NCBI RefSeq assembly: GCF_003018115.1
Contig: NZ_CP027457.1
Reading direction: 5' to 3' (one strand)
Origin: Escherichia coli
GTDB lineage: Bacteria; Pseudomonadota; Gammaproteobacteria; Enterobacterales; Enterobacteriaceae
Length of the DNA: 64,000 bases
Position numbers and translations under genes: made by a program. Of the stretch, positions 3,530-42,679 are shown in pieces; position 1 is the stretch's first letter; each line of letters begins with the position of its first letter. A model generated the notes under the pieces. The model saw only the letters and a program-made list of their open reading frames with translations. It ran no database searches and was not told the origin of the DNA.

Positions 3530-6500
3530 TCAACGAATACTGATGCCGGAAGCGGCTTTTTTGGTCACAATCACCGTACAGTCGGTGATATTGCCTGCCC
3601 CCTGATTGCCTTTCTGGAAAATCTTAAACTCCAGAGTGACGCTACCACCACCACTAGGCATATCAATAACTGCACTGTAACTACCGGGAATGGCCCCTTT
3701 AGTTTCTCTGGATGCGATTAATACGCCGTTTTTGCGAACTTCAAAACCATAACCCGTGTATCGCGTGCCTCCTGGGTTATTTCCGCTCCCCGGATCGTCA
3801 TACGCTATACCGTTAAAAATAATGGGCGGAATAATAATCTGGCGGTCAAAGTTATGATCATCGCTGATGGTGACTGTAACCGTACCGTTTGGTGTTTCCG
3901 TGTTACCCCACGTACCGACTTTTTTCGGGAAGGCTTTTGATACAGCTTTAACGAAATCCCCTCTGACCTGGGTCGCCTCCAGCATGCCCTTAATCGTACA
4001 GTTCTGGTTAATCGTGACATTGTTGAGCGTTCCTGAGTTCGCATTCACACTACCACTGATATCCGCATTTTTAGCGGTCAGCTTTCCGTCTGATGTCAGG
4101 GAAAATACCGGAGGACTGCCACCGCTGGTAATGGTGGGGGCCGTCAGGCGTTTCAGGAACACTTCATTCATGAATATCTGATCGCCCTGACCAACAAACA
4201 TCGGCTTTGTGTTGCCATTCGCAGGATTAATCATCGCAATCCTGTCTGCTGCCAGCAGCACCTGACTCTGCATGCCGTCAGGGGTGTTCTCAATACCGGC
4301 ACCGATACCCGCAATATAAAGGCGTCCGTCCTGCATCTGCTGCAGCTTCACTGCCCACATGCTGTTCAGGTTATTATTTGTATCAACCTGAACCTTCTGT
4401 ATCTGCTGGATTGCCGCACTCTGGTCTTCCAGTTTCTTATTGACGGTCTGTGTTATTTCATTGCTGACATCCGTTATGGACGTCCTGATTTCAGTCAGGT
4501 CAGGCGCAAGCTGACCGTTATCAATCTGCGTCCACAGCTCCTGAGCCAGATGGGTTTTCCCTATCTCGCCTTTGAAAAAATCCAGATAGCCTGATGCATC
4601 ATCACTCGGCTGACCGACAGCCTCCACGAATGCCGATTTGCCAACGGTGTTCACACTGCGAACGTAAAAATAATAATCATGGCCCGGTTTGATATTGATA
4701 CTGGCGGCTATCCAGTACAGTGCCGTACCAAGATAACGCGCGCTGGTTTCAACCTGCCTGATATCCGCAATCCGTTTTTCCGAGAACCAGAACTCAAACT
4801 GTACCGTCGGGTCATAAACCGCAAGATGCGGCGTGGCGGTTATCTGAAAATAGCCCGGCGTCAGCTCAATCCGCGACGGCGCTGCCGGTGCGGCAATCCG
4901 GAACGATACCGACGCCGGATCGCCCTGCTGCCCCCACGCATTTACTGCCCGGACTGTCAGCCTGTAGTTCCCCAGAGCCAGTTGTGTGAAGCGGTAAGTG
5001 GTTTCCGTCGTCCGGGCCGTGCTGACCAGCCGCTCACGGCCGTCATCCGCTGCCACGGTCAGGCGAAGCAGGAAGCTCACGCCCTTCACCACCTTCGGCG
5101 TGTCCCAGCGCGCCAGCACCTGGTATTCCCCGCTGTCTGCGGTGACTTCTGCGGTCAGGTGCTGCACCGCTGGCGGCGTGACACCATTTACCGTGCCGCT
5201 CTGGTCGCCGTCAAAGTGCGCCCCGTTATCCACGATGGCCTCTTTTTCCGGTACATGCTGCACGGCGGTGATGGCATACGTGCCGTCGTCGTTCTCACGG
5301 ATACTCACGCAGCGGAACAGGCGCTGGCGCAACGTCGACAGCTTCAGCCCCCATACGCTGTATTCAGCAACGCCGTCAGGAACACGGCTCACTTTCACCT
5401 TCACGCCGTCGGTGACGGACTGAACCTCCACGCTGACCGGACTCCCCTGCCCGTCAACCAGGCTTATCAGCGTGGTGCCGGAAGATGGCAGCGTGATTTC
5501 ACGGTCGAGCGTCAGCGTCCGGGTCTGGCTGTTTACCGCCAGCACGCGCCCGCCGGTGCGGATACCGGCATAGTCATCATCGCAGATTTCAATGACATCG
5601 CCCGGTACATGGCGAAGCCCTTCGGCACCCACGCTGAAGTCCACGGTCTGCGTTTCCAGCAGTTCTGTTTTAATCAGCCACAGCCCGGCGCGGTGTGCCT
5701 GCCCCCGGCTGGTACAGCCAAAAGCATCCATCTTCGTGACGTTACGACCGTAACGGGCAATGGCCTGCGTGTCCTCCACAAGCTCTGTCGCCGTCTCCCA
5801 GCCGTTATTCGGGTCAATCCAGTTCACCTCAACGGCATTATGGCGGTCCTTCAGGGCGCTGAAGCTGTAGCGGAACGGCGCACCATCATCCGGCATCACC
5901 ACATTACTGCGGTTATAGGTCCACACCTTATCCGACGGTCGGTCCTGCACGAACGTCAGCGTCTGCCCGTTCCATACCGGCATACAGCGCATCGCAGAGC
6001 AGAAATCACTGAGCACATCCCACGCCTTGCGCTGTGTGGTCAGGTACGCATTACAGGTGATGCGCGGCTCTGTGCCGCCAAAACCGTCCGGCACCGACTG
6101 ATCGCAATGCTGGCCGATGACATACAGCGCCCATTTGTCCACATCCGCCGCACCAAGACGTTTCCCCATGCCGTAGCGCGGATGGGTCAGCATATCCCAC
6201 AGACACCAGGCCATGTTGTTGCTGTATGCTGGCTTAAACGTTCCGTCCCAGATACCGCTGTATTGCCGCGTCTGCGGGTTATAGTTCGACGGCACCTGCA
6301 GAATGCGCCCGCGCAGATGATAATTACGGCTCACCTGCTGGCTGCCGAACTGCTCCGAATCCACCTGCACGCCGACCAGTGCCGTGTTCGGGTAGCACTG
6401 TTTCACATCGATGATTTCGGTGTATGACGACCAGAGCGTTTTGTTCTGCAGCTGGTCTGTGGTGCTGTCCGGCGTCATCCTGCGCATCCGTATATTGAAC

Positions 6501-24202: not shown

Positions 24203-24431
24203 GCAAAAAAGCTCCCGAAGGAGCCTTCATTTTCACTTTTTTAAATCCAACGACAGACGGCTGGCATTTAAGTATTGTGAAATATTATCAAATGTAATCA
24301 TCATTGATTTACAAAAGATACATTTTGCCCCGAAAGGATTCATGTCAGAAACATCAAAAGATGATGTTCTATACTGGGAACCATGACAACACGGGCATCT
24401 AAAGTGAATATGGTTTGTAATATTGTCTACC

Positions 24432-24644
24432 TCAAAGCGCCACTACATGAACAGCGGCAGGACCTTTAGGTCCGTTCTCAATACCAAATTCAACTTCCTG
24501 ATTCTCAGTTAATGTTTTGAAATCGTTGCTCTGAATTGCTGAGAAATGGACAAACACATCTTTGCTGCCATCTTTCGGCGTGATGAAACCAAAACCTTTT
24601 TCAGGGTTAAACCATTTCACTAAACCAGTCATTTTGTTAGACAT
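24432..24644 (-). CDS. cspI: Cold shock protein CspI
   Basis: 70 aa CspA-family sequence [23 protein letters not shown]. Confidence 0.9.
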
Positions 24645-25006
24645 AATTATTACCTTTTGAAGAAATTAGCCCTTGGGCAGAATGGTCCGAAAAAAAATAT
24701 CAGAGAGAAAAACCAACAAGGAAATCTCAAGAGGTACAAATAATAAAATTATAACAATGACTGCTTCAGATAAATTTGTAACAAACCAGAACACCATTAA
24801 CGCATGATTAACCACCCATAGCAAGGATTACTTTTGTAAAGAAAAACACAGCAATGAAAGAATAGCTTTATTTATTAATAAAACGTGTCATTCTGATTAA
24901 GACCTTTTATCTTACCCTTAAGATTTCAGGAATTTTGGCTCATGGAAGAGTCCTTTTTATTTAAATTTTACATTCCGCGATGTAAATGTTCCGATTTAAT
25001 ATTACC

Positions 25007-27045: not shown

Positions 27046-27315
27046 GCTTTTTGTGGGAGTCATCCACTTACGCACTTTGTTTTGCCATGCCAGCAGTTAG
27101 CTTCTGCTGTAAAACTATTCATGCAGCAAACCTGCACTTCACCACAATGGTTAGCATACTTTTCCTGATTAAGATTTTGCCAAATATGCTAGCCATTGTT
27201 TCATGTATTGGACCTCCTTACTTTTTATTAAAGAGATCCAATATTCACTACTCTGTCCGTATCTCTACTCAGGCATCAGCCTTCTTCGTTATCGTATACA
27301 GACGAGCGATGAATT

Positions 27316-27531
27316 TTAATCAGTAATGATGACATTTGCTGCTGCAGGACCTTTAGCACCACTCTCTATAGAGAAGGTAACCTTTTGACCTTCAAATAAG
27401 GTTCGATAATTATCATTCTGAATCGCAGAAAAATGCACAAACACATCTTTACTACCATCAACAGGAGAAATAAAGCCGAAACCTTTATCAGCGTTAAACC
27501 ATTTTACTAAACCAGTCATTTTATTTGACAT
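27316..27531 (-). CDS. cspB: Cold shock protein CspB
   Basis: 71 aa CspA-family sequence [23 protein letters not shown]. Confidence 0.9.
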
Positions 27532-27831
27532 TCTACATTCCTTAACTTGAGCCTTTCGGCATAAATGGTTTGCATAACAGAAACGACTTCGTACTTAATT
27601 GGAGAGACTCAAAGAAGGAATAAGTGAATAACACCTGAAATGAGAACTGCTTTAGTAAACTACTTCGTATATCGTCTGTTCTTCAAACCGACGCAATCAT
27701 TAACGCATAGTTGAACATATGAAGCAATGTTTATTTTAGACATCCAGCCATCTTCAACCCCATCAAAAAACTATAGCTTTCTTCAGGAACGTGTGTATAG
27801 TGCGCCAAGTTATCAGTATTAAGGAATTTTT

Positions 27832-32899: not shown

Positions 32900-34600
32900 A
32901 ACTATTTCTGTAGTCACTTTTGTGGGGACAGTCCACAAAACTGCCAACTTCCGCTTCTTGCTCTTAGCGGACATTAGCATAGGCTATTTACCATAACGCC
33001 TCATTACGCGCACCGCCCAGACTGACTCAGCGCGTTTCTGGCATATCCCCGGTAAAACAAGTAACAAACCACCCGAAAATGAACACCAGAAACGCGACTT
33101 AAGAATCTACCCTATGAATGGATATGCACTCAACCGAATCGATCTTGGTTTCAATCTTTTTTATCGGGATCAGGCTTCTTTTTAGGTAACTTCGGGGGCT
33201 TAACTTGCTGATGACTTTGCGTTCGGCGCGTAAGCCAGGGATGGTCAGCTTTAGGTTTAACATAGTATTTTGAGCGTAAATCAATACGGGCATTATCCAC
33301 TCGTTCATGGACACTCTTTTCATCATCCAGTGGTATAGGCTCCGGGCCATCAACATACTTTTCCCAGCCCAGCGCTTTCCCGTCATACAGAACGTTAATT
33401 TCACCGTCAAAGTTCTCGCATACAGTAACAACCGAATGCCTAAGTCGATATCCCCGGCCCTCACTGCGTACCTGAAACGCACTGCTTTTGTACTGGAAAG
33501 TGAGATTTTTAGACAGAACGCGCTTCGCCTGTAGGCTGAAGATATAACCCAGTTCCTCTTCAGAATGGTGCACATCAAGATGAGCATTATCAGTAGTACG
33601 AGGCGACGTAGCGAACCGGTTGTTATAGGCTTCAATAAAGGTCGGCAACCATGCATTTGCTGTTTCAATATCACTGATATTCTGAAGCCGCATTTCTTTG
33701 ACCAGCCTGTCCTGTAGTGTCTGATTGGCGCGCTCTACCCGCCCTTTTGCCTGCGGGCTGTTGGCATGGATTGGCTCGATGCCCAGTGTCTTTATCGCAC
33801 GAGTGAACTGGGTCAGCTCACCTTCCCGCTCTGGGTTATTTACCCTGAATATACTGTGTCTATCAGAGTAGAGAGCGAGCGGTACGCCATGATCATTAAG
33901 GTAACCCCGGAGGGTTTCCATGTAAGCCCGGGTTGTTTCAGCAGGCACAAAACGCAACGCCATCAACGCACTGGTGGCATCATCAATGAAAACGATCAGT
34001 GTACATCTGGGGCCTCGATTTTCAAACCAGTCATGAGGTGAGCCATCAATCTGGATCAGTTCACCGTAAGATGGTCGTCGCATGCGGCGTTGATATATAC
34101 GGGCAATTTTACGACGGCGTTCACGCCATAACCCCTCTTCTATCATCCACTTTCTGAGAGTTTCAACGGATAAAGATAAACCGTGTATCTCGCGCAATTT
34201 TTCGCACGCAAACGTAGGTCCAAAATCAGCGTAACGGCCTTTGAGGAGTGAAATTACTGTTGCTCTGAATTCAGTAGAAAAGGAATTATTAGGACGCTTT
34301 CCACGTCGGTGGGAAACCAGACCAGAAGGCCCTTCATTTCTATACCGTTGCACCAGACGTTTAACCTGCCGAATAGAAATGCCAATGCGTGCCGCAGCTT
34401 GTTCCTGAATAATCTGAAGTCGGTGGAGTTCCTTATGACTCATCGTAACAGTCTCTTTGATCATGAAAAATCCCCCAGAGAATTGTCTGGGGACATTTTA
34501 GAATGGTTCAAAGGGGACATTACAGCTTGGTGTTAACAATAGCCTGCTTCTCCGTGCCTTTCGGCACGTAAGAGGCTAACCTACATGTGTCTAGCATGAA
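32900..34600 (-). mobile_element. Insertion sequence carrying a single DDE transposase (IS481/ISNCY-type); ends not resolved
   Basis: Single 437-aa transposase ORF; terminal inverted repeats could not be assigned by eye. Confidence 0.55.
33151..34464 (-). CDS. DDE transposase with N-terminal HTH and integrase-core (rve) catalytic domain
   Basis: 437 aa; D (IQIDGS), D (YSDRHS), E (GRVERANQ) triad spacing typical of rve. Confidence 0.85.
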   Translation of the reverse strand: MIKETVTMSHKELHRLQIIQEQAAARIGISIRQVKRLVQRYRNEGPSGLVSHRRGKRPNNSFSTEFRATVISLLKGRYADFGPTFACEKLREIHGLSLSVETLRKWMIEEGLWRERRRKIARIYQRRMRRPSYGELIQIDGSPHDWFENRGPRCTLIVFIDDATSALMALRFVPAETTRAYMETLRGYLNDHGVPLALYSDRHSIFRVNNPEREGELTQFTRAIKTLGIEPIHANSPQAKGRVERANQTLQDRLVKEMRLQNISDIETANAWLPTFIEAYNNRFATSPRTTDNAHLDVHHSEEELGYIFSLQAKRVLSKNLTFQYKSSAFQVRSEGRGYRLRHSVVTVCENFDGEINVLYDGKALGWEKYVDGPEPIPLDDEKSVHERVDNARIDLRSKYYVKPKADHPWLTRRTQSHQQVKPPKLPKKKPDPDKKD

Positions 34601-34798
34601 ATTGGCCTCAGATTAATGTTAAGCGTCTTGCAGGACGCGTAATGTTAACTGGGGCTTTTCTCTATCTGCCGTTGGTGTCCATGCCCGAGGCAGATAGCCT
34701 CAAGCACCCGCAGTCATTCTACTTAACTAAGATTTCCCCGCAAACCGTTTTTGTCCAGCACAGTAAATATCCAACTAAACCAATGGAGTTCGCTGTAT

Positions 34799-34978: not shown

Positions 34979-35652
34979 TATTCCTCCTACAATCAATGTG
35001 CAATTACATTTAAACACACCTCAATTTGGCCGGACATATAAATATCTAAACCAGAAAAAATCACTTACATAGCGTTACAAACTCTTTAGTCTAAAGGTTC
35101 ATCGTAAAACATTCCCCATACTTATCAGTCCGTTCCGCGCCAGGTAGCTCATTGCCTTATCTGGCAACCTGTAATCAGGTTTCCGCTTTTTCAGTTGGCT
35201 GGTCGTTTAACCGACATAGTTAATCCATTAATCTAGTTGCCGGATGTTGGTGGATTTTCGCGTTTTAGTTGTTCATAAAAGTGCACAGCTTTAACCAGTT
35301 CTTCTGATGTAACTGGGACTGGTGAGGCAGTGAATAAGGCCTGAATTTGATAGTTCGGCCTGTCGTTACAATCCTCTTTTTTCGGTACATATTTCCAGTC
35401 ACCAGACCACTACTTCCCCTGAAAGTCCGTAACGCCTTTTTTCACGTAGCGATATCGCCATGCCACTGGTTTTGCTTGCCCCGCCGTTTCATGCCCTTCC
35501 TGATAATTAATCTCGCTCATTCATCGCCCCACTCATCACAATATGCTTCGACCGGAGTTTTTCCCGCTTCATAGTCATCACGCTAGGATTCGACATCAGC
35601 AGCACTTCCACCGCGTAACTCACCATAGTCCATTAATAGTTCATCCCGCTCT

Positions 35653-35660: not shown

Positions 35661-35741
35661 GTAAGCGTCGTCTCAGCACCGTCTGGCAGATCCTGAAATT
35701 CCTGAGAGAATAGTGGACACCAAATATGGTGGACGCAATCC

Positions 35742-36146
35742 ATGAAATCATTAACCGCAGTGCGTAAAAAAAGCCCTAATTATCCCGTTGAGTTCAAAAT
35801 CAAAATGGTTGAACTCTCGCATCGACCAGAGATCTCCGTAGCGCAACTCGCTCGTGAGCATGGGATCAACGATAATTTGCTGTTCAAGTGGCGCCAGTAC
35901 TGGCGCGAAGGAAAACTACGTCCTCCTTCAACAACAGAAAACAACGTGCCTGAGCTGCTCCCGATAACACTTGATGCCGAAGATGTTGTCCCTACAACCT
36001 CCCCCCGGTCACAACCTGTAGCTGCTGCGACACCTGAATCACTCAATATCAGCTGTGAAGTGACGTTCCGGCACGGATCACTCCGTCTGAATGGTGCCAT
36101 CAGCGAAAATATCCTGAACCTGCTGATACGGGAGCTCAAACGTTGA
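35742..36146 (+). CDS. IS66-family accessory protein TnpA (orf1)
   Basis: 134 aa, HTH-like N-terminus, first ORF of element. Confidence 0.85.
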   Translation: MKSLTAVRKKSPNYPVEFKIKMVELSHRPEISVAQLAREHGINDNLLFKWRQYWREGKLRPPSTTENNVPELLPITLDAEDVVPTTSPRSQPVAAATPESLNISCEVTFRHGSLRLNGAISENILNLLIRELKR

Positions 36147-36490
36147 TCCCATTACCATCAGGGACAAAGATCTGGCTGGTCGCTGGCATCACCGATATGA
36201 GAAACGGCTTCAACGGCCTGGCGGCAAAGGTGCAGACGACGCTGAAAGACGATCCGATGTCAGGTCACGTTTTTATCTTCCGTGGGCGTAATGGCAGTCA
36301 GGTAAAGCTCCTCTGGTCTACCGGCGATGGACTGTGTCTGCTGACCAAACGGCTGGAGCGCGGCCGCTTCGCCTGGCCGTCAGCCCGGGATGGCAAAGTG
36401 TTCCTCACACCGGCACAGCTGGCGATGCTGCTGGAAGGTATCGACTGGCGGCAGCCTAAAAGACTGCTTACGTCCCTGACTATGTTGTAA
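36143..36490 (+). CDS. IS66-family TnpB (orf2)
   Basis: 115 aa, 4-nt overlap with tnpA. Confidence 0.85.
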   Translation: MIPLPSGTKIWLVAGITDMRNGFNGLAAKVQTTLKDDPMSGHVFIFRGRNGSQVKLLWSTGDGLCLLTKRLERGRFAWPSARDGKVFLTPAQLAMLLEGIDWRQPKRLLTSLTML

Positions 36491-36538
36491 GCCTCTTTAT
36501 CCTGGTCGACGCTGAATGAGCCTGGTAATATACCCGGT

Positions 36539-38074
36539 ATGAGCAGCTCACTTCCTGACGATATCAATGCACTGAAACGTCTCCTTGCCGAACAGGAGGC
36601 GCTGAACCGTGCCCTGCAGGAAAAGCTGAACGAGCGTGAACGCGAAATAGACCATCTGCAGGCACAGCTGGATAAGCTGCGCCGGATGAACTTCGGCAGC
36701 CGCTCGGAAAAAGTCTCCCGTCGTATCGCACAGATGGAAGCTGACCTGAAGGCACTTCAGAAAGAAAGTGATACCCTTACCGGTCGGGTTGACGACCCGG
36801 CCGTGCAGCGCCCGCTGCGTCAAACCCGCACCCGCAAACCGTTCCCCGAATCACTCCCCCGCGATGAAAAACGGCTGCTGCCGGCAGCGTCATGCTGCCC
36901 GGAATGTGGAGGCTCGCTGAGCTATCTGGGTGAGGATGCCGCCGAACAGCTGGAGCTGATGCGCAGCGCCTTCCGGGTTATCCGGACTGTACGTGAAAAG
37001 CATGCCTGTACTCAGTGCGATGCCATCGTGCAGGCCCCCGCGCCTTCACGGCCCATCGAGCGGGGTATCGCAGGACCGGGGCTGCTGGCCCGCGTGCTGA
37101 TCTCAAAGTATGCAGAGCACACCCCGCTGTACCGCCAGTCTGAAATGTACGGCCGCCAGGGCGTGGAGCTGAGTCGTTCACTGCTGTCGGGCTGGGTGGA
37201 TGCATGCTGCCGGCTACTGTCACCGCTGGAAGAAGCGCTTCAGGACTATGTGCTGACTGACGGTAAGCTCCATGCTGATGACACGCCTGTCCCGGTGCTG
37301 TTGCCAGGCAATAAGAAAACGAAGACCGGGCGGTTATGGACCTACGTTCGTGACGACCGTAACGCCGGGTCAACGCTGGCGCCGGCGGTGTGGTTCGCTT
37401 ACAGCCCGGACAGAAAAGGCATCCATCCGCAGACCCATCTTGCGGGGTTCAGTGGTGTACTGCAGGCGGATGCATACGCCGGGTTCAACGAGCTGTACCG
37501 GGATGGCCGGATAACGGAAGCCGCCTGTTGGGCTCACGCCCGCCGTAAAATCCACGATGTGCACGTTCGCACCCCGTCAGCCCTGACGGAGGAAGCGCTG
37601 AAACGGATCGGCGAACTGTACGCCATCGAGGCAGAGATAAGGGGAATGACGGCGGAGCAGCGCCTTGCCGAACGTCAGTTGAAAACGAAACCGCTGCTGA
37701 AATCCCTGGAAAGCTGGCTGCGTGAAAAGATGAAAACCCTGTCGCGACACTCAGAACTGGCGAAAGCGTTCGCATACGCCCTGAACCAGTGGCCGGCGCT
37801 GACGTACTATGCAGATGATGGCTGGGCTGAGGCGGACAATAACATCGCTGAAAATGCGTTGCGGATGGTCAGTCTGGGCCGCAAAAACTACCTGTTCTTC
37901 GGTTCGGATCATGGAGGAGAGCGGGGAGCGCTGCTGTACAGCCTGATCGGGACGTGCAAACTGAACGGAGTGGAGCCAGAAAGCTACCTCCGCTATGTCC
38001 TTGACGTCATAGCCGACTGGCCGATAAACCGGGTCGGCGAACTGCTCCCCCTGGCGCGTAGCACTGCCGACTGA
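36539..38074 (+). CDS. IS66-family transposase TnpC (orf3)
   Basis: 511 aa, N-terminal leucine zipper, Cys-x2-C zinc motif, DDE core. Confidence 0.9.
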
Positions 38075-38115
38075 ATAACACATCCCCGTCAATACGGTTC
38101 TTGCTGCACGCTTAC

Positions 38116-38123: not shown

Positions 38124-38593
38124 GATGTTATATTTAGCTGAACAAAAATCAGCCACTTTGTTCTTCCTCATCGTCTTTTATTTCGTGGTATGAGTAATTG
38201 CAGTAGTTAAAGAAAATTTCTTATGCTCCGTCATGAATTTCCTCAGGTGTTGCGTCATCGTCCACTTCGAATACATCCTCAAAATCTCCACCAGCTATTC
38301 CCGTTTCAATAATAATTTTGAACTTTCGCATTTCACTACCGCCCTTTCGGGCGGCCTCCTGATGTTCTGAGGGTGCAGAAATCCATCCGGTTAAGGATTA
38401 AATTTTATTTACAGAACTGAATTTAATTATTCAGATATACGTATCTGTAGCCTTACGAATCTACTCACTGGATGCCTCTTTCATAAAAATAATCCAGTGG
38501 GTTTTATCGTTTTTTCCCTGTTCGTTGACAGATAACAGGTTTTCTGTCTGTCAGTGCCAGAATCTGGCTTACCGGTATTTGCGTTTCATTCCA

Positions 38594-38950
38594 TTAAAAA
38601 ATCAGAACGCCGTGCGGCCTCAACACCCGAAAGGCTTCTTTAAATCTCTGTCGCGAATCATCACGCCAGGCATCTTTATTCAGCCGTCCATATTTCTTTC
38701 CCATCCAGGCGTTATCACCAACACTCTCAAGATGCGGAGGGTCTAATACAACCATCGAAAAAGATGCGTCTGCAAATGATAATGCACGAAAATCTGCGAT
38801 AATGTCAGGGCTGATAATCAAGCGTCTCCCATTGCGTAATGTGTATCCTTCTTTTCTGATATCGCTGAATATCGCCCGTTCGTCAGACTTATCGAACCAG
38901 AACATGCGGCTGCCACAGCACATATCAAGAATGGTTGCCGGTGCACTCAC
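38594..38950 (-). pseudogene. Truncated SAM-dependent methyltransferase-like ORF (motif I then DPPH)
   Basis: 118 aa is too short for a full Rossmann MTase; in-frame TAA followed by about 32 further sense codons. Confidence 0.4.
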
Positions 38951-42620: not shown

Positions 42621-42679
42621 ATTTTCTGGTGACGTTTGGCGGTATCAGTTTTACTCCGTGACTGCTCTGCCGCCCTTTT
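42621..42679 (+). ncRNA. dicF: DicF small regulatory RNA (antisense inhibitor of ftsZ translation)
   Basis: Sequence TTTCTGGTGACGTTTGGCGGTATCAGTTTTACTCCGTGACTGCTCTGCCGCCCTTTTT with 3' terminator hairpin, between ydfC and dicB. Confidence 0.75.

What the first reader, a model, noticed from the sequence alone, without database searches (positions are those of the whole stretch)
38225..38370. Short acidic ORF with a hairpin between a consensus Shine-Dalgarno and the start codon
On the minus strand AGGAGG is followed by a perfect CCGCCC-GAAA-GGGCGG stem-loop and then ATG of a 36-aa acidic peptide (MRKFKIIIETGIAGGDFEDVFEVDDDATPEEIHDGA). Hairpin formation would bring the Shine-Dalgarno to about 7 nt from the ATG, a structure-dependent initiation layout. 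This is speculative and could be chance.
Basis: inference. Interest (0 to 1): 0.25.

Follow-up and report, generated by a model that had tools for sequence, protein, structure and literature searches.

The report
Hairpin-bridged ribosome site before a broken gene
The 36-codon ORF is the front part of a nonsense-inactivated 60-codon prophage gene (DUF7167), and the Shine-Dalgarno/hairpin/ATG layout is real: it ends a ~100-nt cassette that many E. coli prophages place in front of unrelated small genes, probably as a portable "split" ribosome binding site like those of phage T4 genes 38 and 25.

Summary
The sequence is as described, on the minus strand: AGGAGG (38360-38355), CCGCCC-GAAA-GGGCGG (38354-38339), 7-nt spacer, ATG (38331). 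The strict layout occurs once in the window and in none of 60 shuffles.

The "36-aa peptide" is not a gene in its own right. It is a DUF7167 gene (60 codons, 38331-38149) with an AAA->TAA nonsense at codon 37. RefSeq annotates identical DNA as a pseudogene. It lies in a decaying Qin/Rac-like prophage beside an IS66-family insertion.

The SD and hairpin form the 3' end of a ~100-nt intergenic cassette (38434-38332). This cassette is present in 2554 of 5426 complete E. coli genomes, up to 6 copies each. In other prophages the same cassette precedes at least five unrelated gene families. Except before a Q-like gene that has its own GGAG, the ATG lies 6-9 nt after the hairpin with no other SD in the spacer.

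The hairpin folds in all 37 haplotypes, and the loop and spacer vary. Covariation is not statistically significant, and there is no expression evidence.

Best reading (about 0.55): a hairpin-bridged split RBS of the T4 gene 38/25 type, here attached to a dead gene.

The parts
38355..38360 (-). Shine-Dalgarno AGGAGG, 23 nt (linear) upstream of the ATG. Its last G can pair with U38338.
   Evidence: Read directly. In 37 haplotypes from 208 loci, the GG of the GGAG core is invariant and the A and G are each retained in >=90% of haplotypes.
38339..38354 (-). Hairpin CCGCCC-GAAA-GGGCGG (6 G-C pairs, tetraloop). It extends to 7 pairs with the G38355.U38338 pair.
   Evidence: dG is about -14.4 kcal/mol and the stem is unpaired with probability <=0.01.
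38332..38338 (-). 7-nt A/U-rich spacer TAGTGAA between the hairpin and the start codon. It contains no SD-like motif.
   Evidence: In other copies and before other genes the spacer is 6-9 nt, without GGAG, GAGG or AGGA.
38329..38331 (-). ATG start codon of the DUF7167 reading frame.
   Evidence: The Pfam DUF7167 model aligns from residue 2 (profile position 1). Distant homologs of 51-61 aa start at the same residue. Independent phage annotations use this ATG.
38221..38331 (-). The 36-codon ORF of the finding, including the premature stop TAA at 38223-38221 (K37*).
   Evidence: AAA in intact alleles is TAA here. 28 of the 130 CDS copies collected share this allele.
38149..38331 (-). Whole DUF7167 reading frame: 60 codons plus TGA, with an internal stop, so a pseudogene.
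   Evidence: With the stop read as K, Pfam PF23768 gives E=1e-13 and 51.6 bits against a 24.4-bit cut-off, covering profile 1-60/60; phrog_1997 gives E=2e-29. RefSeq annotates identical DNA as 'DUF7167 family protein, pseudo, internal stop'.
38332..38434 (-). Conserved ~100-nt intergenic cassette. From 5' to 3': an AT-rich mini-hairpin, an AU-rich stretch, the core AATCCTTAACCGGA(G/T)GGATT, CCCTC, a linker, the SD and the hairpin.
   Evidence: Homology with other prophages starts at 38434 regardless of the upstream gene. The cassette is in 2554 of 5426 complete E. coli genomes, at 3907 places. It precedes at least 5 unrelated gene families.
38417..38434 (-). AT-rich mini-hairpin CTGAAT-AATTAA-ATTCAG at the left boundary of the cassette.
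   Evidence: It is in the MFE and centroid structures. Variants are CTGAAT..ATTTAG, CTGAAAATTTAAATCAG and CTGAATAATTAAAATCAG. It was not tested statistically.
38380..38399 (-). Cassette core AATCCTTAACCGGATGGATT. Most copies have GGAGGG here, an upstream SD-like motif. In Stx phage ArgO145 a split copy uses this motif as an ordinary SD for an inserted gene.
   Evidence: 1 mismatch to the consensus; ArgO145 split copy.
35661..38115 (-). Context: a 2455-bp IS66-family element (ISEc22-like) with an 8-bp target duplication AGTTTTGA. It is inserted 33 nt downstream of the DUF7167 stop codon, in the next gene.
   Evidence: The empty site is seen in phage PhiR42_1.

Best explanation
The feature is the translation-initiation region of a DUF7167 gene. 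It forms the 3' end of a ~100-nt intergenic cassette shared by E. coli lambdoid prophages.

Proposed mechanism: a very stable 6-7 bp G-C hairpin fills the 23-nt gap between a consensus SD (AGGAGG) and the ATG. On the folded mRNA the SD then lies about 7 nt from the start codon. The 30S subunit can bind the SD and the AUG with the hairpin looped out. This would be a non-contiguous (split) RBS, as shown experimentally for T4 genes 38 and 25.

The cassette is portable. Recombination has placed it directly in front of several unrelated accessory genes, always with the ATG 6-9 nt after the hairpin.

In this window the layout serves a dead gene. Codon 37 is a TAA nonsense, so at most a 36-aa fragment is made, lacking half of the helix and the C-terminal segment. 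The surrounding prophage is decaying.

Shown here: the sequence, the fold prediction, the pseudogene status, the distribution of the cassette and the constant spacing. Inferred: that initiation depends on the hairpin.
For: - Geometry and stability.
- Not chance.
- Start codon validated by the Pfam profile start and by about 50 distant homologs of 51-61 aa.
- The cassette precedes DUF7167, DUF4014 (Pfam 1-72/72, so its start is validated), Ead/Ea22-like/DUF551 proteins, another DUF551 protein and a 43-aa ORF. Spacers are 6-9 nt and free of SD motifs. Only the Q-like antiterminator has its own GGAG.
- Independent annotators chose those ATGs in ArgO145, mEp460 and 666R9.
- The SD core is nearly invariant. 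The hairpin folds in all 37 haplotypes, and 185 of 208 loci have dG <= -8 kcal/mol. The loop (GAAA/GAGA/GGCA/GTCA/AAAA/TAAA) and the spacer vary while the stem is kept. Two pairs show double compensatory changes.
- Homologs at 75-80% aa identity keep the SD/hairpin/6-7 nt/ATG layout.
- More distant Klebsiella homologs use an ordinary SD 7 nt from the ATG or a stop/start overlap. T4 gene 25 shows the same phylogenetic pattern (PMC3014915).
- Experimental precedent: PMC3014915; PMC7297116.
- Pseudogene status. The AF2 model places the helix at residues 29-43, which K37* cuts.
Against: - No experiment or expression data.
- Covariation is not significant. 93.8% and 91.9% of cells are paired, against 93.4% and 91.4% in shuffles.
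- By my tally, about 37 of 208 copies carry a stem mismatch. One haplotype (5 loci) keeps only a 3-bp stem, yet has an intact CDS and no new SD.
- The sequences are closely related (mostly >90% identity), so conservation could largely reflect recent common descent and recombination.
- The 3' arm GGGCGGU is itself a one-mismatch SD look-alike at a suitable distance from the ATG.
- Conserved anti-SD-like CCCUC and UCCU stretches can pair with the SD in some predicted folds; mean SD accessibility is 0.3-0.56.
Confidence: 0.55

Rival explanations
1. The hairpin is an mRNA processing, stability or insulating element of a polycistronic early transcript, and is not needed to position the SD. It could act as a decay barrier, or as a structural insulator that makes the leader independent of its flanks. 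The downstream genes would then start through the A/U-rich spacer (S1-dependent, SD-independent initiation) or the weak GGCGGU motif.
For: The hairpin lies between cistrons; in ArgO145 it follows directly after the stop codon of gp16. An AU-rich single-stranded stretch precedes it. Spacers are A/U-rich. The 3' arm GGGCGGU differs from GGAGGU at one base. Copies with weakened stems persist with intact genes.
Against: The consensus SD abuts the hairpin in every copy and is the best-conserved motif. GGCGGU is locked in a -14 kcal/mol stem. The tight 6-9 nt hairpin-to-ATG spacing before unrelated genes is not required by a pure stability element.
Confidence: 0.2
2. The cassette is mainly a DNA-level 'boundary/linker' sequence. 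It would be a conserved stretch at which homologous recombination shuffles accessory genes among lambdoid prophages, and the hairpin would have no RNA function of its own.
For: The left and right boundaries are sharp, with at least 6 different upstream contexts and at least 5 downstream gene families. There are multiple copies per phage and per genome. Covariation is non-significant. The concept is established for lambdoid phages (boundary sequences, cited in PMC3029335) and for T4 PeSL cassettes (PMC2839356).
Against: This does not explain why the right boundary always coincides with a start codon 6-9 nt after a hairpin that follows a consensus SD. It also does not explain why the genes lack their own SD. 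This rival is compatible with the best explanation rather than exclusive of it.
Confidence: 0.12
3. The hairpin is an operator for an RNA-binding regulator, either a translational repressor or activator or an N/boxB-like factor, that co-regulates the genes carrying the cassette.
For: The same hairpin is present before many early accessory genes. GAAA is the majority loop, as in GNRA-type protein-binding hairpins.
Against: The loop varies freely to non-GNRA sequences (GGCA, GTCA, AAAA, TAAA), so there is no loop-specific recognition. There is no boxA at nut-like distance, and the location is not just downstream of pL or pR. No Rfam family matches.
Confidence: 0.08
4. The 36-aa ORF is a genuine small acidic protein, and the hairpin/SD arrangement is chance or specific to it.
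For: The K37* allele is common: 28 of the 130 CDS copies collected, with near-identical DNA in about 400 complete genomes. The 36-aa part still scores 29.9 bits on DUF7167.
Against: The frame continues for 23 conserved codons after the TAA. All other lineages and distant homologs are 51-61 aa. The allele shows 5 non-synonymous against 2 synonymous differences from the intact consensus. The truncation cuts the predicted helix. The neighbouring gene also carries a nonsense codon and an IS. RefSeq marks it as pseudo. The layout is not chance.
Confidence: 0.03

Closest known systems
Split (non-contiguous) ribosome binding sites of phage T4 genes 38 and 25 (Gold 1988; Nivinskas et al. 1999; Malys & Nivinskas 2009; reviewed in PMC3014915, PMC7297116)
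   Same: The SD is too far from the AUG in linear sequence: 22 and 27 nt in T4, 23 nt here. A stable hairpin fills the gap and brings the two to 5 and 11 nt in T4, and 6-7 nt here. There is no other SD. Close relatives keep the structure, while distant relatives have ordinary sites.
   Different: The host is a temperate lambdoid prophage, not a T-even phage. There is no sequence similarity. The element is not tied to one gene: it belongs to a repeated cassette placed before several unrelated genes. Function here is inferred, not tested.
PeSL mobile regulatory cassettes of T4-type phages (PMC2839356, PMC4122927)
   Same: Both are short conserved intergenic cassettes containing a stem-loop. Both are repeated within a genome, flank variable accessory ORFs and mark mosaic junctions.
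   Different: PeSLs are an early promoter plus a terminator stem-loop. Here no sigma-70 promoter and no U-tract terminator were found. The conserved signals are an SD and a hairpin next to the start codon, so the shared function would be translational, not transcriptional.
Conserved boundary/linker sequences of lambdoid phages (Susskind & Botstein 1978; Clark et al. 2001, as cited in PMC3029335)
   Same: Both are short conserved sequences at module junctions in lambdoid genomes that can support homologous recombination.
   Different: I could not read those papers, so I do not know whether this particular cassette was described. Exact-sequence and keyword searches of the open literature found nothing.
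Lambda nut boxB hairpins and intrinsic terminators
   Same: Both are short G+C-rich hairpins, with a GAAA-type loop, in an early phage operon.
   Different: The loop is not conserved as GNRA, there is no boxA, the position is wrong, and no U-tract follows on either strand.

Membership tests
Split RBS of the T4 gene 38/25 type | SD at a non-functional linear distance (>15 nt) from the start codon | tested here: met
   There are 23 nt between AGGAGG and the ATG. The linear distance is 22-25 nt in all other copies.
Split RBS of the T4 gene 38/25 type | A stable hairpin occupies the gap and brings SD and AUG to 5-11 nt | tested here: met
   The stem has 6-7 bp with dG about -14 kcal/mol and is formed with p>=0.99. 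Effective spacing is 6-7 nt here and 6-9 nt in other genes.
Split RBS of the T4 gene 38/25 type | No alternative SD between hairpin and start codon | tested here: met
   The spacers TAGTGAA, TAATGAAAA, TAAGAA, TAATGA, AACAGATA, TAATAAATA and others lack GGAG, GAGG and AGGA. The sole exception is the Q-like gene (TGGAGATAATA).
Split RBS of the T4 gene 38/25 type | Structure conserved among relatives with compensatory changes | tested here: inconclusive
   All 37 haplotypes fold, and two pairs show G-C/C-G to A-U double changes. However, shuffle controls are reached in 97-225 of 500 trials, and about 18% of loci carry a mismatch.
Split RBS of the T4 gene 38/25 type | Stem-disrupting mutations lower translation and compensatory ones restore it | not testable with these tools
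   This needs reporter fusions or toeprinting.
DUF7167 (Pfam PF23768) protein family | Score above Pfam's gathering threshold | tested here: met
   The 60-aa read-through scores 51.6 bits and the 36-aa ORF 29.9 bits, against a 24.4-bit cut-off.
DUF7167 (Pfam PF23768) protein family | Complete domain (~55-60 aa) encoded without interruption | tested here: not met
   TAA lies at codon 37. The 36-aa ORF covers profile positions 1-34 of 60. RefSeq annotates it as pseudo, internal stop.
Intrinsic (Rho-independent) terminator | G+C-rich hairpin followed by a U-tract | tested here: not met
   The hairpin is followed by UAGUGAAAUG on the minus strand and by CCUCCUGAUG on the plus strand. The scan did not call it.
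nut site (boxA + boxB) | GNRA-like boxB loop conserved, boxA a few nt upstream, position just downstream of pL or pR | tested here: not met
   Loops include GGCA, GTCA, AAAA and TAAA. There is no boxA. The site lies after the replication and methylase genes here, and in the ead/ea22 region of ArgO145.
PeSL-like mobile regulatory cassette | Repeated conserved intergenic cassette flanking variable accessory ORFs | tested here: met
PeSL-like mobile regulatory cassette | Contains an early promoter and a terminator stem-loop | tested here: not met
   No promoter-like or terminator-like site lies in 38332-38434 on the minus strand. The AT-rich part is not conserved as a -10 element.
Known RNA families (Rfam 15) | Match at or near a family's gathering score | tested here: not met
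   The best matches have E=4.5-7.7, far below gathering scores.

The most novel reading that the evidence does not exclude
E. coli lambdoid prophages carry a mobile ~100-nt 'translation cassette' whose hairpin-bridged SD works as a context-independent, plug-in ribosome binding site. Its conserved sequence also serves as the recombination linker by which new accessory genes are swapped in exactly at their start codons. This would be a translational counterpart of the T4 PeSL cassettes and the first split RBS outside T-even phages that is shared by many genes.
Probability: 0.35. Interest if true: 0.6.

Novelty: new variant of a known kind. Interest (0 to 1): 0.4.

Why it matters
For this window, the practical result is that the ORF should be annotated as a DUF7167 pseudogene, not as a small protein.

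More generally, split ribosome binding sites are known from very few genes. Here one is found in nearly half of complete E. coli genomes and reused before unrelated genes. If confirmed, it would show that such sites can be modular and mobile. It would explain why gene callers mis-start these genes: 84-93-aa extensions run through the cassette. It would also offer a natural, insulated RBS part and a concrete mechanism linking mosaic junctions to start codons in lambdoid phages. It is cheap to test with reporter fusions.

Tried and rejected
- **Rfam** (on the region at E<=10; on the whole window): nothing relevant at the site.
- **Promoter/terminator scan**: no promoter or terminator in the cassette, so the 'moron with its own promoter' and 'terminator' readings were dropped.
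- **Upstream ORFs:**
  - The window lineage has an ATG at 38386 with a 16-codon uORF ending at TAG 38338-38336. That ATG exists only in this lineage (GGATGG instead of GGAGGG) and has no SD, so it was rejected as a conserved coupling device.
  - The 84-93-aa gene calls that read through the cassette were rejected because the family profile and distant homologs start at MRKFK.
- **Species-representative genomes:** two scans found no enterobacterial copy, only chance hits.
- **Metagenome scan** for the diverged 'TCAATCC' variant found nothing.
- **Covariation tests** on 30 and 37 haplotypes were not significant. RNAalifold's long-range consensus had no compensatory support and was not pursued.
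- **Literature searches** for DUF7167, the hairpin sequence and boundary sequences returned nothing specific.
- **Looser SD-hairpin-ATG hits** elsewhere in the window (e.g. + strand 26465) match chance expectation and were not pursued.

Full report
**Observation.** On the minus strand the window reads CAUC-AGGAGG-CCGCCC-GAAA-GGGCGG-UAGUGAA-AUG.
- The SD is at 38360-38355, the hairpin at 38354-38339, the 7-nt spacer at 38338-38332 and the ATG at 38331.
- The 36-codon ORF ends at TAA 38223-38221.
- The hairpin is present in the MFE and centroid folds. It has dG of about -14 kcal/mol.
- In the ensemble it is essentially always formed, while the spacer and AUG are mostly unpaired and the SD is partly accessible.
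- A strict search (AGGAGG, 0-2 nt, perfect stem of >=6 bp, 4-10 nt, start codon of an ORF of >=30 aa) finds only this site in both strands of the window, and none in 60 shuffles.

**What the ORF is.** The frame continues after the TAA for 23 codons, to TGA 38151-38149.
- With the stop read through, the 60-aa product matches Pfam DUF7167 over the whole model (E=1e-13) and phrog_1997 (E=2e-29).
- Identical DNA in RefSeq E. coli genomes is annotated 'DUF7167 family protein, pseudo, internal stop'.
- In 130 CDS copies collected from viral contigs, 101 are intact 60-codon genes. 28 share the window's AAA->TAA change at codon 37.
- The window allele differs from the intact consensus by 5 non-synonymous and 2 synonymous changes.
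- Distant homologs are free-standing proteins of 51-61 aa that begin at the same MRKFK/MKK position. This validates the ATG and shows that 36 aa is a truncation.
- An AlphaFold model (pLDDT 85.8) has a beta-hairpin (residues 2-8 and 17-23) and a helix (29-43). K37* cuts the helix and removes the conserved C-terminal segment.

**Context.**
- The locus lies in a Qin/Rac-like defective prophage. Its neighbours are cI/DicA, Cro/DicC, cII and O homologs, DUF977/LygF and a short SAM methyltransferase, with DicF and sok RNAs nearby.
- The gene overlapping the DUF7167 stop carries its own TAG nonsense codon. It is also interrupted by a 2455-bp IS66-family element (35661-38115) with the target duplication AGTTTTGA.

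**The SD and hairpin belong to a cassette.**
- Homology with other prophages starts at 38434, whatever gene lies upstream.
Together with the loci already held, this gave more than 200 copies.
- The cassette has a fixed order. It starts with an AT-rich mini-hairpin (CTGAAT..ATTCAG) and an AU-rich stretch. Next come a conserved core with a first SD-like GGAGGG, then CCCTC and a variable linker. It ends with AGGAGG and the G-C hairpin.
- At least six different upstream contexts abut the same left boundary.
- On the right, the cassette is followed directly by the start codons of unrelated genes:
  - DUF7167;
  - DUF4014 (72 aa, Pfam 1-72/72);
  - Ead/Ea22-like proteins with DUF551;
  - another DUF551 protein;
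  - a 43-aa ORF.
- Before these five, the ATG lies 6-9 nt after the hairpin and the spacer has no SD motif.
- The cassette also precedes a Q-like antiterminator. That gene has a GGAG of its own, in an 11-nt spacer.
- Independent annotations of ArgO145, mEp460 and 666R9 use exactly these ATGs.
- ArgO145 has two copies. In one, a gene is inserted between the first GGAGG (used there as an ordinary SD) and the SD+hairpin unit, which then follows the inserted gene's stop codon and precedes DUF7167.
- The cassette is present in 2554 of 5426 complete E. coli genomes, at 3907 places, up to six per genome. It is in only 21 of 50,697 phage records, all E. coli-type temperate phages.
- It is absent from species-representative genomes of other taxa.

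**Is the hairpin under selection?**
- Across 37 SD/hairpin haplotypes (208 loci), the GG of the GGAG core is invariant and the A and G are each retained in >=90% of haplotypes.
- The loop varies (GAAA, GAGA, GGCA, GTCA, AAAA, TAAA) and so does the spacer. Every haplotype still folds, and 185 of 208 loci have dG <= -8 kcal/mol.
- Homologs with only 75-80% protein identity keep SD/hairpin/6-7 nt/ATG with changed loops and spacers.
- Two pairs show double compensatory changes (G-C to A-U, C-G to A-U).
- The formal tests are nevertheless not significant. Cells paired are 93.8% and 91.9%, against 93.4% and 91.4% in shuffles.
- About 18% of loci carry a mismatch. One haplotype retains only three pairs, yet its gene is intact.
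- The set is shallow (mostly >90% identical), so this test is inconclusive rather than negative.
- More distant Klebsiella homologs have an ordinary GGAGG 7 nt from the ATG, or a stop/start overlap, and no hairpin.

**Mechanism.**
- The best-supported reading is a split ribosome binding site. The hairpin loops out 16-18 nt, so the SD sits 6-7 nt from the AUG.
- T4 genes 38 (22 to 5 nt) and 25 (27 to 11 nt) work this way. There, stem mutations reduce translation, and only close relatives carry the arrangement (PMC3014915; PMC7297116).
- The reuse of one SD+hairpin before unrelated genes that lack their own SD is the main new argument here.
- The rivals are: a stability, processing or insulator hairpin with SD-independent initiation; a DNA-level recombination linker (compatible with the main reading); and an operator for an RNA-binding regulator (disfavoured by the free loop variation).
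- A terminator, a nut site, a conserved uORF and a longer 87-aa ORF were tested and rejected.

**Verdict.**
The layout is real, conserved and probably functional, but in this window it heads a nonsense-inactivated gene.
- The element resembles known split RBSs and the PeSL and boundary-sequence concepts, without being a described member of any. I found no description of it in the searchable literature.

Noticed in passing
window 35661-38115 (minus-strand reading); duplications at 38123-38116 and 35660-35653: A 2455-bp IS66-family (ISEc22-like) element with an 8-bp target duplication AGTTTTGA. It interrupts the gene that overlaps the DUF7167 stop codon (GTG at 38156, phrog_519-like). Phage PhiR42_1 shows the empty site.
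   Followed up: yes
window 35583-35585 (minus strand): The IS-interrupted downstream gene also has a TAG nonsense codon (W->* relative to the homolog in L120). Two adjacent genes are therefore independently inactivated.
   Followed up: partly
L070 and L071 (viral contigs), at the hairpin loop: An independent IS66-family insertion lies inside the loop of the same hairpin. It removes the SD and produces a fused 93-aa gene call (P0004). This is the second IS66-type insertion within about 250 bp of this gene in different strains.
   Followed up: partly
window 38336-38386 (minus strand): In this lineage the cassette's upstream GGAGGG is GGATGG. This creates an ATG and a 16-codon uORF (MDFCTLRTSGGRPKGR) that runs through the SD and hairpin and stops at TAG, 4 nt before the DUF7167 ATG. 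It is lineage-specific, has no SD and is probably meaningless.
   Followed up: partly
window 38594-38950 (minus strand); hairpin 38628-38605: The SAM-dependent methyltransferase ORF is only 118 aa. It ends inside a terminator-like hairpin followed by a T-run. The 160 nt between it and the cassette (38435-38593) are specific to this lineage. This may be a truncated methylase.
   Followed up: no
L229 (phage ArgO145) 3500-3810 and 4780-4880: The phage has two cassette copies. One is split by an inserted 70-aa gene that uses the cassette's first GGAGG as an ordinary SD with a 7-nt spacer. The other is intact and precedes DUF4014.
   Followed up: yes
proteins P0001, P0003, P0006, P0010 (84-87 aa): Gene callers often extend DUF7167 upstream through the hairpin and SD to a GTG or ATG in the AT-rich part of the cassette, especially when the true ATG is mutated (ATA or AGG). 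These calls are likely mis-annotations.
   Followed up: partly
window 42624-42675 (+), 34538-34709 (-), 24405-24790 (-), 27300-27692 (-): Rfam gathering-level hits are DicF, sok and two cspA-type thermoregulators. They identify the window as a Qin-like prophage region.
   Followed up: no
window 35410-35520 (minus strand): A short ORF contains KPVAWRYRYVKKGV, the same segment found in the Ead/Ea22-like proteins that follow the cassette in other prophages. It is probably a remnant of such a gene downstream of the IS.
   Followed up: no
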